Below, one piece after another: positions 3,645 through 49,300 of a DNA stretch of 64,000 nt; the stretch's first letter is position 1, and every line of letters begins with the position of its first letter. The DNA comes from Octopus sinensis. Lineage: Eukaryota. The notes beneath the pieces were generated by a model. That model was not told the origin of the DNA. It ran no database searches and saw only the letters and a program-made list of their open reading frames with translations. The DNA lies in NCBI RefSeq assembly GCF_006345805.1, contig NW_021836290.1, forward strand, positions 124,001-188,000, read 5' to 3'. Made by a program: the position numbers and the translations under genes.

Positions 3645-4235
3645 GATAAATAGTTTTAAAGAGTAAATCAAGTTGAAAAAGTCACAGATGTATATTTTAG
3701 AGAATGTTTAATAAAATATTACCGGTTTCGATGTATCCATTTTATAAAATATTAGAAATATTAGAAAGAAATTTTCTGGGAGTCAGAGAGAAAAATACAT
3801 CTTTTAGGGGGTTTTCAATGTTTTGTCTGTGAAGGTTTCGGGTGGGATTCAAGTTTCATAAGGTCTTTTGAATTGGATAGAAAGCTACTTATGGTTTAGC
3901 CAGCAGCGTGTGTGTGTGTGTGTTTGGAATCAAAAGCATTTTTGTTTTTTTTTCTATCGAGAGAAAATGGCTAAATGTTTTTTTAAGGATGGTTATTCTG
4001 GGGATTATGGTAGAATTATTTGTCATTTATTTTGGTGTGTGTGTGTAGTGTGTCTTTTCTTTGACTCCCACCAAATTTCTTTCTAATATTTCAAATATTT
4101 GGTAAGATGGATACATCGAAATCGGTAATATTTTATGAAACATTCTCTGAAAAATACTTCTGTGGTTTTTCCAACTTTATTTACATTTTTTTAACCATAA
4201 CTTTTGATTTGTATGGAACTCTAACGCCTTTTATT
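3645..4235. mobile_element. Fold-back (inverted pLTR-like) non-coding element with a hammerhead motif in each arm
   Basis: 3670-3753 is an imperfect inverted repeat of 4094-4175; each arm has ...GAAA(C/T)CGGTA; adjacent to (TA)n. Confidence 0.65.
4094..4132 (+). ncRNA. Degenerate minimal type I hammerhead (U3-A8 core); mirror copy at 3715-3753 (-)
   Basis: aatat-TTGGTAA-gatg gata catc-GAAA-tcgg-TA-atatt. The mirror arm reads TTTATAA, so the consensus core is TTGATAA. Confidence 0.55.
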
Positions 4236-5524
4236 TTATATATATATATATATATATATATATATATATATATATATATAATATATATATATATATATAT
4301 ATATATATATATATAATATATATATATATATATATATATATATATATATATATATATATATATTAAACAATTATGAATAAAAGCAAAAGAATTTTTTTTT
4401 CTTTTGCCCTTGTGTATAATTTCAACCTTTAAATGTATTTTAATATGCTTGATGAAATTTTTGAAAAAGTTTTGTCCTATATTAGAAGATATATATATAT
4501 ATATATATATATATTTATATATATATATGTGATTTTAATAGTAAAGTATTTGAGAACTAGTTTTTCCTTGTTCTGCACATATATACTTATTTGTACGCAC
4601 ACATACTCACGCAATCTGAATGCACGCAAGTATGCAATAGGTGCAAAATACTATTTTATTAAAACCGAATATAAACATTTTATATGTGTATGTACGCGCG
4701 CATGTATGTATGTATGTATATACGTATGTATATATGTATGTATATACGTATGTATGTATTAACATTGTTAAATATAAACAAACTTTCAAGAAGTTAGTAA
4801 CTTTAAAAGGAATCTAATTTTTGTATTTGCTTCAAGTAATATATATATATATATATATATATATATATATATATATATATATATATATATATATATATAT
4901 ATATATATATATATATATATATATATATATATATATATATATATATATATATATATATATATATATATATATGATAGATATAAGATAGATAGATAGATAG
5001 ATAGATAGATAGATAGATAGATAGATAGATAGATAGATAGATAGATAATTTCAGAATCACTGATGGGTATGACTGATTTCAAGAGCACGAAACTTTTAGG
5101 AATGAGAAAATGACAGGTTACCATCACAGTCATAATACATTCTACATAATTTTAAGACAGGTATTTAGTGAGTATTTTTGCACAAAACCCCAAACTAAAA
5201 ATAATAAGTTGTATGTGTGAGTGGTGCATGATATACATACGTACATGCATACATACATACATACATATATATATATATATATATATATATATATATAATA
5301 AATTAATAAATAAAACATATGCATATATACATACATATATGTACGTACCTACCTCTACATGTATATATACATGCATATATGGGTACAGGACACCAAAAGA
5401 ACGTCGAACACAATGAGAAACGAAAACATAAACACAAAACCCAGGAACTGGACATTTTTCTTAAACAACAAAATAATAGAGTACAGGACAAATAACACAA
5501 GGAAAATTCCCCTTCTTCAGTCGC

Positions 5525-5910
5525 CATAGTTTCATCTACTCTTTTACTTGTTTCAGTCATTTGACTGCGGCCATGCTGGACCACTGCCTTTAGTCGAGCA
5601 AATCGACCCCAGGACTTATTCTTTGTAAGCCTAGTACTATTCTATCGTAACCACTAAGTTACGGGGACATAAACACACCAACATCGGTTGTCAAGCAATG
5701 TTGGGGGGACAAAAACAGACACACAAATATACACATACATACATATACGACGGGCTCCTTTCAGTTTCCATCTACCAGATCCATTCACAAGGTTTTGGTC
5801 GGGCGGAGGCTATAGAAGAAGACTCTTGCCCAAGGTGTCGTGCAGTGAAACTGAACCCGGAACCATGTGGCCGGTAAACAAGCTACTTACCACACAACCA
5901 CTCCTGCACC
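5525..5910 (-). mobile_element. tRNA-derived CORE-like SINE
   Basis: Minus-strand head GGTGCAGGAGTGGTTGTGTGG...GGTTCAG with CORE-like CCTTGGGCAAG. Homologous copies at 21110, 42715, 43478, 50132 and 51470. Confidence 0.8.
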
Positions 5911-45784: not shown

Positions 45785-46257
45785 GCAATAATAAACCTCT
45801 GAACGAGATGTAAACAGTAACCGCTCGACAACGTAAAGTATACTAGCCATCTCAATATGGCTAACCACTAAGGGTGGGTGATACTGTAGCTTTTAGCCCC
45901 AGGAGATTATCGTCTCCAGCTTTACTGTTTACATCTCGTTCAGAGATTTATTATTGCTTGCAGACAGTTTTTCGAAATCAGTGACGGAAGTTACTGGGGA
46001 AAAACAATAAGTATTTGCAAACAGGTCTCCCTTCATCGAAAACCGGTGATTGCCGTACGTTGACAAGAGGCAAATACCTCGAAACTGCACTCCGTGCGTA
46101 TCACGTAGGTTTACGAGAGAGGGATGACCTCCCTTTGCAAATACACAGAAAGTGTGCCTAAAGCCAGCTGGAGACGATGATCTCCTGGGGCTAAAAGCTA
46201 CAGTAACACCCACCCTTAGTGGTTAGCCATATTGAGATGGCTAGTATACTTTACGTT
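45785..46257. mobile_element. Retrozyme-like element 2 (diverged subfamily, ~345-nt unit)
   Basis: Homologous to element 1; the inverted arm 45785-45920 spans the unit junction TTACGTT|GTCGAGCGG. Confidence 0.8.
46054..46098 (+). ncRNA. Minimal type I hammerhead (U3-A8 core)
   Basis: cgtacg-TTGACAA-gagg caaata cctc-GAAA-ctgcac-TC-cgtgcg. Confidence 0.7.
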
Positions 46258-46376
46258 ATATATATATATATATATCCGCCAATGCGGTGTTGAGCACTGA
46301 TTTCATCGTGCTACATTTATGTGTATGTATATATATATATATATATATATATATATATATATATATATATATACAT

Positions 46377-49300
46377 AGTTAATCCAAACAAGAAAGCACA
46401 AAAAAACACAACAACGCGAGGACGTGGAACAAATATAGTATTATTGGATGCTCAGGAAAGAAGGAAAGAAGGAGGGTTTAACGTTTCGAGCGGAGCGTCT
46501 TCGTCGGAAACGTAGGAGAAGGAAAGTTCCAGAGAAGGGAAGACAGAGAAAAAAAATCGCCAACGGTACACACGAGGTCACATTTTGAAAGACCGGAAGG
46601 AAAAGGCTGAAGAAAGATGTTTTCAAAGACAGAAGAGTAGTATAGTCAAAGACAGCAGAATGTTAGGAGGGGGAATGTGTGTGTAAGTGTGGATATGTGC
46701 GTGCGCGGAGGTCTGCGTGTGTGTGTGTGTGTGTGTGAGTGTGTGTGTGTGTCTGTGTGTGTATGTGTGTGTGGTTGTAGCTGTAAACAAAGGGCTAGTA
46801 GTAAGCTTGGCTAGTTTGTAAGAATAAGGATTGGTGTTTTTGTCCCTGCCACAGGTCAGCACTGTTACTTTGAAGTATGTGTGTGTGTGCGTGTATGTAT
46901 ATGTATCGTGTGTGTGTTTTGTTTGTAGTACGTGTGTGTATGTATGTGTGTGTTCGTGTGTGTATGCGTAGAGTTTGGGAGTGTGGCGAATAACTGTGCT
47001 TTACTTAGTGTATGTGTGCGTGTGTGCTGTACGTGTTTATGTGTATATATATGTATGTGTAATTGTGTGCGTGTATGTATAATTGTGTGCCGTGTGTATG
47101 GGATGTATGTGTGGGTTCATTTGTGTGTGTGTGTGTATGTATGTGTGTGTGTCTGTGCCCATGTGTGTATAAATGTGTGCGTATCTGTATGAGTATTGTT
47201 TGTTGGAGGTATATGTGGGCATCTGTGCTGGTGTGTGTGTTTGTACGTGTGTATGTGTGTGTGCGTGTATTGTATATATATATATATGTGTGTGTGTGTG
47301 TACGTGCGTGCAAGTGAATGTATGTATACATGTTCGTGTGTGTACAAATATAGAGGTTTATATGTGTGTATATATATGTATGCAAGCACACACGTTCTGA
47401 TTGAAAGATTGATGGAAAAAAAATTGGTGTGGGTGTATGTGAATCCACAGGCACACACATACATACACTGACGCACGCCTGCAATACAGCCAACCCCATA
47501 TATATGTATGTATGTATGTATGTATGTATGTATGTATGTATGTATGTATGTATGTGTGTGTGTATGTATGTATGTATGTATGTATGTATGTATGTATGAA
47601 TGTATGTATGTATGTGTGTATGTATGTATGTGTATGTGTGAATGTATGCGTGTGTGGGGGGAGTTGGAGTTGTGTGGGCGTAATGTACATGTGTGTGCTT
47701 GTGTGTGCACGGGCATATGTATGTGTGCGCGTGGGGTTGTATTTTTGTGTGTGTGCGTGTGTGTATATGTGTGCGTATATGTGCATGTATGTTGTACGTG
47801 TGTGGTGTGTTGGAAGTATGTGTGTGTTCGTGGATACGTGAGTATGTGTGTGTATGTGTTTCTGTATAAGGACAATAATTTATAAAAACAATAAAATAAT
47901 AAAAAAACAATAAATAATATAAAAGACGTAATAGCACATAGGGGGGAAAGGGGGAGGAAGAAATAAGAAATAAAAAAGTTGCTTGTTGTGGGAGGTAGAG
48001 CGCATCACTAGGAGGAGGGGCCTGTGTTGAGTCCGTGCGGGGTATAAGTCTGTAAAGTGAAAATGAACCGTTGCTCCAAGTGAAACCTGGATTGTGGAGG
48101 ACCGTTGTTTGGGGCGAGACCAAACACAGAGATGTCATCGGGGGAATGGCTGGCCGAGCAGAAGTGACGTGCGACGGGAGAATTAGAACGCAGCCGAAAT
48201 TCCATTAGATGTTCGGAAAATCGGTCGGCCAACCGGCGTCGCGTCTGACATACATACAGCATCCCGCAGAGGTTGCATTTTATGCAATATATGAGACCAG
48301 ACGAAGTGCACGTAAAAGAATGTCTAATACGTACAGTTCGCTGGTTGGAATCGGTGACAGCAGTGGTGTTGGTGATGAAGGGGCAGGTGTTGCAGCGGGA
48401 TCTGGAGCACGGGAAAGATCCGTGTGGGGCTGAGGGGGAAGAAGAGAGGGTGCTACGGACCAGGAGTTCGCGTAGATTCTGGGCTCGTTTGAAGGAGGAC
48501 AGGGGTGGGTTGGGGAAAATGGGGCGAGTCGTGGGATCGAACTGGAGACGACGGAAGGCACGTAGTATCTTCCGACGAAGGGTTAGAGTGGAGGGGTGGA
48601 AAAGGAGGGGAAAGGAAGTGCGGTTGGAGGGTTGGTGAGAGGAAGGAGAAAGGGCGGTGGTGCGGTCGATGCGACGAGCGCGGGCAAGGGCGTTCAAGAC
48701 CAGGGTTGATGGGTATCCTCGATGCCTGAACAGGCGGTCCAGGTACTGAGACTGAGTCTCGAAAACCTGGTCGCGGCTGCACAAGCGTCGGAGGCGGAAG
48801 AACTGGGAGTAGGGGATGGCCCGTTTGGTGTGGAAGGGATGGGAGGAGGAGAAGTTGAGATAGAGGTGGGAATCCGTGGGTTTGAAGAAGGCGGAGGTGG
48901 TGAGAGAGTGTGAGGGGCGGTCGATGCTAAGAGAGATATCAAGGAAATTAACAGAGGTATTGGAGATGGTGGAAGTGAATTGGAGAAAGGAAAGAGATGA
49001 GTTGTTCGCGGGAAAGGGAGGTAGCGCCTATGCAGTCGTCTATGTAGCGACCGTATAGTTCTGTGGTCGGCCCGGAGAATTGGGAGAATACTTGGGCCTC
49101 AATGTAGCCAACAAAGAGATTGGCGAAATTGGGGCCCATTCTCGTTCCCATCGCGACCCCAGACAATGTTGGTACGTTTCCTCGGCGAACGTGAAACAGT
49201 TGAGGGTAAGGACGAGCTCTGCCAGGCGGAGAAGGGTGGGGATGATAAGGGTGGGGTCGGGACGACGGTCGAGGAAGTATTGGAGAGCTAAGAGACCATC

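What the first reader, a model, noticed from the sequence alone, without database searches (positions are those of the whole stretch)
3715..46512. Natural panel of 3-8 core variants across independent families in one window
Motifs read by eye: C3-G8 (42561-42628; degenerate 46475-46512), U3-G8 (45094, 44902), U3-A8 (46054, 40379, consensus of 3715/4094) and G3-C8 (30512, 21468). Most have short palindromic stem III (ACCGGT, ACTATAGT, AATATT, ACTCGAGT), which suggests dimer-dependent cleavage. Inference: this genome hosts a large, under-counted and diversified repertoire of non-canonical minimal hammerheads.
Basis: partly seen in the sequence, partly recalled or inferred. Interest (0 to 1): 0.72.

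Follow-up and report, generated by a model that had tools for sequence, protein, structure and literature searches.

The report
Swapped-core hammerheads in Penelope-type elements
Ten motifs here are copies of six jumping-gene families that carry a hammerhead (predicted self-cutting RNA) shape, and a normally fixed core base pair is changed family-wide to U-A, G-C or a U-G wobble in several of them, which likely reflects selection to keep the pair, although cutting is untested.

Summary
All ten motifs are at the cited places and belong to six repeat families with about 100 to over 7,000 genomic copies or candidates. The 3-8 identity is a family trait, not decay: G3-C8 in family B (7,604 pattern hits; 90 of 100 listed), U3-A8 in C, D and A2, U3•G8 in A1, C3-G8 in E and F (F also U4C). 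In 1.2 Mb of sampled genome, a search with 3 and 8 left free gave 29 motifs against 1.1 comparable hits in shuffles; 26 of 29 could pair at 3-8. One 354-bp retrozyme superfamily holds C-G, U•G and U-A, with palindromic stem III kept through double changes. Corrections: the ten motifs are about seven insertions, five copies are damaged, A and E are not minimal, and canonical C3-G8 dominates genome-wide. These are Penelope-end and retrozyme hammerheads, a known kind; U3-A8 is published. Natural family-wide G3-C8 and U3•G8 were not found in the searched library, but this scan noted both before on other DNA. Cleavage and dimer dependence are untested; protein assistance is a published rival.

The parts
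3715..3753 (-). Family C minimal type I hammerhead (family U3-A8, stem III ACCGGT); this copy has G5>U and a broken 10.1-11.1 pair; left arm of an inverted pair
4094..4132 (+). Family C hammerhead, right arm; A6>G and broken palindrome
21468..21518 (-). Family B hammerhead (G3-C8, extra base after A9, stem III AATATT); C11.1>G in this copy; part of the two-armed insertion 21390-21711 whose + arm lacks G3-U4-G5
30371..30575 (-). Family B element, about 200 nt, both 3' end sites present; intact G3-C8 hammerhead at 30512-30562
40380..40414 (-). Family D minimal hammerhead (U3-A8, 2-bp stem II, stem III ACCGGT, 5-bp stem I extendable to about 11 bp), matching the family majority, 115 nt after the endonuclease ORF
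40537..41822 (-). 5'-truncated Penelope-type element: GIY-YIG endonuclease ORF (40537-41217) and reverse-transcriptase fragment (41211-41822); weak Pfam GIY-YIG and RVT_1 matches below curated cut-offs
42560..42629 (-). Family E hammerhead (C3-G8, large loop II, stem III ACTCGAGT); old family; this copy has a private stem I mismatch
44732..45355 (.). Two-armed inverted insertion of the 354-bp retrozyme subfamily A1, ending in TA repeats
44902..44947 (-). A1 hammerhead, U3•G8 wobble, G10.1•U11.1, stem III ACTATAGT, GUC site
45093..45138 (+). A1 hammerhead, U3•G8 wobble (position 3 = 45100, position 8 = 45105, predicted cut after 45131)
45786..46257 (.). Insertion of sister subfamily A2 of the same retrozyme; hammerhead 46053-46098(+), U3-A8, family palindrome ACTGCAGT damaged in this copy
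46476..46511 (-). Family F minimal hammerhead (C3-G8 with family-wide U4C, extra base after A9, stem III ACGT)
48008..50126 (-). Penelope-type RT (48948-50126) and endonuclease (48008-49027) ORF pieces upstream of the F hammerhead; no Pfam hit, assigned by tblastn likeness to the D ORFs and by linkage in 3 other F loci

Best explanation
The motifs are type I hammerhead folds carried by six mobile families (Penelope-type element ends and a 354-bp retrozyme), each family has its own fixed 3-8 pair, and the pair was likely kept by selection on the few master RNAs that were copied. Likely mechanism: the master RNA is transcribed; a Penelope RT/GIY-YIG protein nicks AT-rich DNA and primes at one of two internal sites, which gives the two fixed 3' ends and the inverted arms; the hammerhead would cut only conditionally and slowly, when two copies pair through the palindromic stem III or when the element's protein helps folding, releasing unit-length RNA (for A, probably circles). 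Because any paired 3-8 state still positions the ribose of nucleotide 8 and because insertion can use uncut RNA, the constraint is 'keep a pair', not 'keep C-G', so U-A, G-C and even a U•G wobble could be fixed and amplified. Shown: motifs, family fixation, covariation, end pattern, ORF linkage for D and F. Inferred: selection, mobilisation of A, B, C and E in trans, dimer or protein dependence. Untested: cleavage.
For: Family fixation: B G3-C8 68 of 72, C U3-A8 31 of 34, D U3-A8 32 of 33, E C3-G8 27 of 32, F C3-G8 40 of 43; A1 U3•G8 53 of 55, A2 U3-A8 8 of 8, A3 C3-G8 14 of 15. Genome patterns with 3 and 8 free: B 7,604 hits vs 2 control, 90 of the 100 listed G3-C8; full G3-C8 core 7,323 vs 127 control, all 100 listed B-like, variation concentrated in loop II, stem II and N7; A 323 hits vs 0, of 100 listed 63 U•G, 36 U-A, 1 C·A, 0 C-G, and 34 of 36 U-A carry the A2 loop against 2 of 63 U•G (hand count). 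Unbiased sample: 29 motifs vs 1.1 (stem III >=2 nt) or 4.6 (all) in 10 shuffles and 2 reversed; 26 of 29 pair at 3-8. A1/A2/A3 majorities are 73-81% alike, differ at 89 of 273 columns but at 0 of 10 other core columns (p about 0.02), and keep a perfect palindrome through double changes (CTATAG, CTGCAG, CCCGGG). Stem III is unstable as a hairpin (+2.9 to +6.0 kcal/mol) and stable as a duplex for A1, A2, C, D (-7.2 to -11.1). Two 3' ends: A1 20 of 54 at +206 and 17 of 54 at +247-256; B 31 of 67 at +121-128 and 23 of 67 at +178-188, as described for Penelope RT start sites (PMC11167929). D: 35 of 37 copies have a same-strand Penelope ORF within 3 kb, mostly 108-152 nt upstream. B shows no alternative letter at 3% or more at any core position in runs of four organism labels. 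G3-C8 rescues activity in vitro (PMC9901934; PMC11167929; PMC8495972); U3-A8 is natural and active (PMC3088659; PMC4209133).
Against: No cleavage, transcript end or circle was shown. In the one exhaustive mutant scan read (a type III hammerhead, PMC9901934) all single and double core mutants except the G-C swap had low activity, which includes U3•G8. A1 also has G10.1•U11.1, A3 has C10.1·A11.1, B has a UUU cleavage triplet and a duplex stem III of only -0.2 kcal/mol, and F -1.7. The predicted lowest-energy folds of A1 and A2 pair core GAC with the GUC site, an inactive form. Penelope insertion in vitro did not need cleavage, so A1 could have amplified with a crippled ribozyme. No autonomous partner was found for A, B, C or E (same-strand Penelope ORF within 3 kb for only 3 of 114, 2 of 79, 1 of 41, 2 of 35 copies). 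Copy sets were picked by likeness to the window copies, so family fractions are biased to close copies; family states are not phylogenetically independent.
Confidence: 0.78

Rival explanations
1. Relaxed selection: the hammerheads are dispensable for transposition, the variant cores are dead or nearly dead, and paired 3-8 states are relics from earlier times or by-products of CpG mutation (C7pG8 to C7pA8).
For: Catalytic mutants did not affect insertion in vitro and no RNA-seq ends were seen at the cut site for a lizard Penelope (PMC11167929). Copies include sequence on both sides of the cut site. Weakening changes accumulate family-wide: U4C in F, G•U at 10.1-11.1 in A1, UUU in B. G8 sits in a CpG in A1 and A3.
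Against: Core invariance and palindrome-keeping double changes between masters 19-27% apart; G3-C8 needs two transversions and cannot come from CpG decay; no family with an unpaired majority among 14; U3•G8 persisted through successive A1 subfamilies 86-99% alike to the window copy without further core loss.
Confidence: 0.15
2. The motifs cut as protein-assisted monomers, not as dimers; the palindrome is only the smallest hairpin or a protein-binding mark.
For: The lizard Penelope hammerhead cut only when the element's protein was added. Many copies of B, C, D, E, F are single or inverted, which gives no tandem sense copies; B and F palindromes are too weak as duplexes on their own.
Against: Central palindrome positions covary in A, which a monomer hairpin with a 4-nt loop would not require; A occurs in 354-bp tandems; dimer cleavage of such motifs is published (PMC4209133; PMC6765202 passages). 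The two modes are not exclusive.
Confidence: 0.3
3. The motifs are chance matches or single-copy decay products of canonical hammerheads.
For: Sporadic U3•G8 is often decay: of 4 sampled U•G hits, L219 and L218 belong to C3-G8 families and L243, L251 are singletons. Five of the ten window copies are damaged.
Against: Family majorities, genome counts and shuffle controls.
Confidence: 0.02

Closest known systems
Minimal type I hammerheads in the pLTRs of Penelope-like elements (Cervera and De la Pena 2014, PMC4209133; parts 1-2 of 4 of the text and part 1 of 3 of supplement 2 read)
   Same: Type I topology, palindromic stem III, extra base after A9 (B, F), position just 3' of the RT/GIY-YIG ORF (D, F), inverted partner copies, natural U3-A8 families (about 1,300 hits in Schistosoma).
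   Different: That paper reports U3-A8 only; G3-C8 (B), U4C family-wide (F) and a 2-bp stem II (D) are not in the parts read; no cephalopod term found in the supplement searched.
Metazoan non-LTR retrozymes (Cervera and De la Pena 2020, PMC7229834, passages; Li, Clavereau, Pollet bioRxiv 10.64898/2026.07.22.740005, abstract and passages)
   Same: Non-coding tandem units of about 350 bp with one canonical-size type I hammerhead each, well-folded as a circle (-111 vs -83 +/- 5 kcal/mol in mononucleotide shuffles), Penelope-dependent.
   Different: Superfamily A carries C-G, U•G and U-A at 3-8 in three subfamilies; circles and expression were not shown here; no core variant or octopus mention in the passages found.
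Natural core variants of Perreault et al. 2011 (PMC3088659, passages)
   Same: U3-A8 covariation, U4C (viroid) and 2-bp stem II are described as natural and tolerated.
   Different: Rare single sequences there; here whole mobile families with hundreds to thousands of copies; G3-C8 and U3•G8 not seen in the passages read.
Poseidon PAc hammerhead of Anolis (Frangieh et al. 2024, PMC11167929, passages and part 2 of the main text)
   Same: Two internal RT start sites give two fixed 3' ends; engineered C3G/G8C partly restores cleavage in a Penelope hammerhead.
   Different: G3-C8 is engineered there and natural in family B.

Membership tests
Type I hammerhead ribozyme | Core UGA-N-N-A, GAAA and U-H around three helices with open stem I | tested here: met
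   Family majorities A1, A2, B, C, D, E; F departs by U4C
Type I hammerhead ribozyme | 3-8 base pair | tested here: met
   Watson-Crick in A2, A3, B, C, D, E, F; wobble only in A1
Type I hammerhead ribozyme | Stem covariation between diverged members | tested here: met
   A1/A2/A3 stems I and III; not testable for B, whose copies are too alike
Type I hammerhead ribozyme | Match to Rfam hammerhead models | tested here: not met
   0 gathering hits in the window; none at E<=10 over the A1 copies
Type I hammerhead ribozyme | Site-specific self-cleavage 3' of H17 | not testable with these tools
   Only assembled contigs were available
Penelope pLTR minimal hammerhead | Motif in the terminal repeat beside an RT plus GIY-YIG ORF | tested here: met
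   D 35 of 37 copies; F window plus 3 other loci; Pfam support weak or absent
Penelope pLTR minimal hammerhead | Autonomous partner ORF for families B, C, E | tested here: inconclusive
   No linked ORF within 3-kb loci; 5 of 59 B copies extend into shared intron-like DNA ending in an acceptor-like AG
Penelope-type mobilisation | Two fixed 3' ends (tail) and inverted 5' arms, AT-rich targets | tested here: met
   A1 and B end clusters; inverted arms
Non-LTR retrozyme | Non-coding tandem units of 170-400 bp, one hammerhead each | tested here: met
   354-bp tandems in L004 and others
Non-LTR retrozyme | Circular RNA in tissues | not testable with these tools
   No raw RNA reads offered
Dimer-cleaving hammerheads | Palindromic stem III unstable as hairpin, stable as duplex | tested here: inconclusive
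   Met for A1, A2, C, D; duplex weak for B and F; cleavage mode untested

The most novel reading that the evidence does not exclude
One retrozyme superfamily preserves a whole compensatory path in a ribozyme active site: C3-G8, U3•G8 and U3-A8 subfamilies side by side, with the wobble 'intermediate' not transient but long-lived, catalytically sufficient and still amplifying, while a second family has fixed the two-transversion G3-C8 swap in over 7,000 copies. The 3-8 rule in vivo would then be 'any pair, even a wobble', and hammerhead censuses of animal genomes miss tens of thousands of motifs.
Probability: 0.4. Interest if true: 0.68.

Novelty: new variant of a known kind. Interest (0 to 1): 0.5.

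Why it matters
It gives a natural, evolution-tested panel for an open question: whether and how Penelope and retrozyme hammerheads need to cut. Five core states (C-G, U-A, G-C, U•G, C-G with U4C) in replicating families can be assayed side by side, and the homologous A1/A2/A3 trio tests whether a G•U wobble is a viable stepping stone in a catalytic core. It also shows that standard models miss these motifs: Rfam finds none in the window, and family B alone has over 7,000 copies.

Tried and rejected
Rfam: no hammerhead among the 150 listed of 322 matches at E<=10, none at gathering score (58) or locally (59). Second U3•G8 family: L219 looked like one but its family majority is C3-G8; rejected. 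Common origin of C and D: only a 13-nt core match and a 28-nt match at E 0.015; unresolved, merged in the conservative permutation. L057 (C3·A8, two tandem copies): long branch of unstable position, left out; a pattern meant to count its kin was mis-sized and found 1 unrelated match. Six antisense false matches and decayed L215 were dropped from the 87-row tree, leaving 80. Autonomous partner of B: the Penelope ORF near L269 is a separate insertion; the stretch upstream of one L089 copy is not shared. RNA evidence: no RNA holder listed; contigs cannot show ends; no joint at the cut site listed; one T>C row was not displayed, so U3 fixation in other organisms is not fully shown. The direction of change among C-G, U•G and U-A has no model-based estimate; it rests on counting the fewest changes. 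The 5' start cluster at -15 for B is set by the reference and was not used. Papers not held: Przybilski and Hammann 2007, Lunse 2017, Seehafer 2011, Hammann 2012, Nelson and Uhlenbeck 2008; they may already describe natural G3-C8 or U3•G8 or their rates.
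Full report
Setting. The window is G000:C12761:124001-188000 of a 2.72-Gb animal genome, rich in microsatellites and broken retroelements. That it is likely an octopus is recalled from size and repeat content and echoed by earlier scan notes; no call here names it.

Observation. All ten motifs are present with the stated 3/8 letters. A strict descriptor with positions 3 and 8 free and a palindromic stem III passes three of them (45100+, 44940-, 30555-) against 0.07 per shuffled window (60 shuffles) and 0 in the reversed window. The other seven needed their families to be judged. 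The ten motifs reduce to about seven insertions: 44732-45355 and 3663-4184 are two-armed inverted insertions, and 21468 and 30512 are one family.

Families. DNA searches of the own genome gave 854 (A1), 897 (B), 101 (E), 194 (C), 999 (D) and 2,560 (F) first-look candidates, 40 scored each. Majorities over distinct fetched copies: B G3-C8 68 of 72; C U3-A8 31 of 34; D U3-A8 32 of 33; E C3-G8 27 of 32; F C3-G8 40 of 43 with C4 in 32 of 43. These sets are biased to close copies, so exact patterns with 3 and 8 free were counted genome-wide. B: 7,604 hits against 2 for the reversed pattern, 90 of the 100 listed G3-C8. A looser G3-C8 core pattern gave 7,323 against 127, and all 100 listed are B-like, so natural G3-C8 here is essentially one family. 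In contigs of four runs with four organism labels no core position of B showed another letter at 3% or more.

What carries them. D lies 115 nt after a GIY-YIG-type ORF preceded by an RT fragment (Pfam matches weak, below cut-off), and 35 of 37 D copies have such an ORF within 3 kb: the 3' repeat of a Penelope-type element. F lies downstream of similar ORF pieces in the window and three other loci (no Pfam hit). A is a non-coding 354-bp tandem unit, a retrozyme by the published definition (PMC7229834 passages; bioRxiv 2026.07.22.740005 abstract). B is about 200 nt; 5 of 59 copies run upstream into shared microsatellite DNA ending in a branch-point-like and acceptor-like sequence, recalling the intron beside the Penelope hammerhead (PMC4209133), but no partner ORF was found. 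A1 and B each end at two fixed 3' sites, the signature of two internal RT start sites in Penelope elements (PMC11167929).

One superfamily, three pairs. With 3 and 8 free, the A pattern gave 323 hits (0 control); of 100 listed, 63 are U3•G8, 36 U3-A8, 1 C3·A8 and none C3-G8, split by subfamily markers (counted by hand). A distant relative in the random sample led to a third, larger subfamily A3 (2,253 candidates) with C3-G8 in 14 of 15 copies. The three majorities are 73-81% alike; 89 of 273 columns vary but none of the ten other core columns (p about 0.02), stem I keeps pairing, and stem III stays a perfect palindrome through double changes. The three groups are well separated on the tree (supports 100, 91, 75-100). 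U•G is one change from each of the other two states, so the fewest-change reading (two steps against three) makes A1 the holder of the wobble stepping stone, whatever the root; this is inference, A2 sits on a short branch, and G8 lies in a CpG, so a later A8>G in A1 is not excluded. Either way U3•G8 has lasted through A1 subfamilies 86-99% alike.

Genome-wide test. 120 evenly spaced 10-kb stretches of contigs 1-9 (1.2 Mb) gave 29 motifs in 22 stretches against 1.1 (stem III insert of 2 nt or more, as all 29 have) or 4.6 (all) in 10 shuffles and 2 in reversed DNA; 26 of 29 pair at 3-8: C-G 16, G-C 5, U•G 4, U-A 1. Scaled up this is tens of thousands of motifs, a rough figure because hits cluster. 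All 14 family states can pair (permutation p 0.0005; 0.004 for 9 merged groups; families are not fully independent and some rest on 1-3 copies). Rfam finds none of these motifs in the window, which supports under-counting by that library.

Mechanism. Shown: folds, fixation, covariation, ends. Inferred: masters are copied by Penelope protein; cutting is conditional. Stem III is unfavourable as a hairpin and favourable as a duplex for A1, A2, C, D, weak for B and F; A monomers are predicted to fold into an inactive GAC:GUC pairing. Published data: min-hammerheads cut weakly as dimers; a Penelope hammerhead needs its protein, is partly rescued by C3G/G8C, and need not cut for insertion in vitro; in a type III scaffold only the G-C swap rescued the core, which counts against efficient U3•G8. 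I therefore expect B, A2, C, D to cut slowly and A1 to be the open case.

Novelty. The kind is known and U3-A8 is published. Searches for natural G3-C8 or U3•G8 found only engineered G3-C8; five key papers were not held, supplement file 1 of PMC4209133 was not searched and parts 2-3 of file 2 were seen only as search passages. Earlier scan notes already describe the G3-C8 family and a wobble retrozyme on other DNA; no note held all words of a search for the three-state path. Verdict: real, a new variant of a known kind; the three-state superfamily is the most testable addition. Interest 0.5.

Noticed in passing
L266:8800-9080 and L343-L356: Subfamily A3 (C3-G8) has a family-wide C10.1·A11.1 mismatch closing stem II, at the normally conserved G-C position.
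   Followed up: partly
L057:1421-2075: Two tandem A-type units with an unpaired C3·A8 core and a shorter palindrome; position on the tree unstable, possibly chimeric.
   Followed up: partly
L065, L068, L071, L269 upstream of the B motif: Shared microsatellite-rich DNA ending in CTAAC...TTTCTCAG about 20 nt before the motif; looks like a retained intron; most other B copies start right there.
   Followed up: partly
window 46476-46511: Family F, about 7 copies per 1.2 Mb sampled, carries U4C family-wide; older relatives show U4.
   Followed up: partly
L224:2848-5220: Six copies of a 535-bp tandem unit with a C3-G8 hammerhead and large loop II, related in stem II to family E.
   Followed up: no
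L256, L271, L281, L310 and others: The commonest hammerhead family in the sample (24 copies in 16 of 120 stretches), canonical C3-G8 with ACGT stem III; absent from the window.
   Followed up: partly
L238:6584 and L265:1316-1409: Another U3-A8 family with an A-like stem II; only two copies seen.
   Followed up: no
L079:1081-1510, L080, L089: Local tandem arrays of B pieces (84-bp and about 170-190-bp units), each with a G3-C8 motif in the same sense, which could allow dimer folding.
   Followed up: no
window 27758-29004 (+): PIF1-type helicase pieces (Pfam PF05970, PF21530), likely a Helitron remnant.
   Followed up: no
window 23945-26050 (-) and 9574-16045 (-): LINE reverse-transcriptase pieces (RVT_1, zf-RVT), several broken copies.
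   Followed up: no
window 23210-23728 (+) and 2051-2656 (-): piggyBac-type transposase piece (PF13843) and a hAT-like piece (label recalled; no Pfam hit).
   Followed up: no
window 39338-39898 (+): 186-aa open frame with no Pfam hit; resembles short-chain collagen C4-like proteins (recalled); possibly the last exon of a host gene.
   Followed up: no
window 19152-20084 (-) and 37614-38018 (-): Further Penelope-type RT and endonuclease fragments with no hammerhead detected beside them.
   Followed up: no
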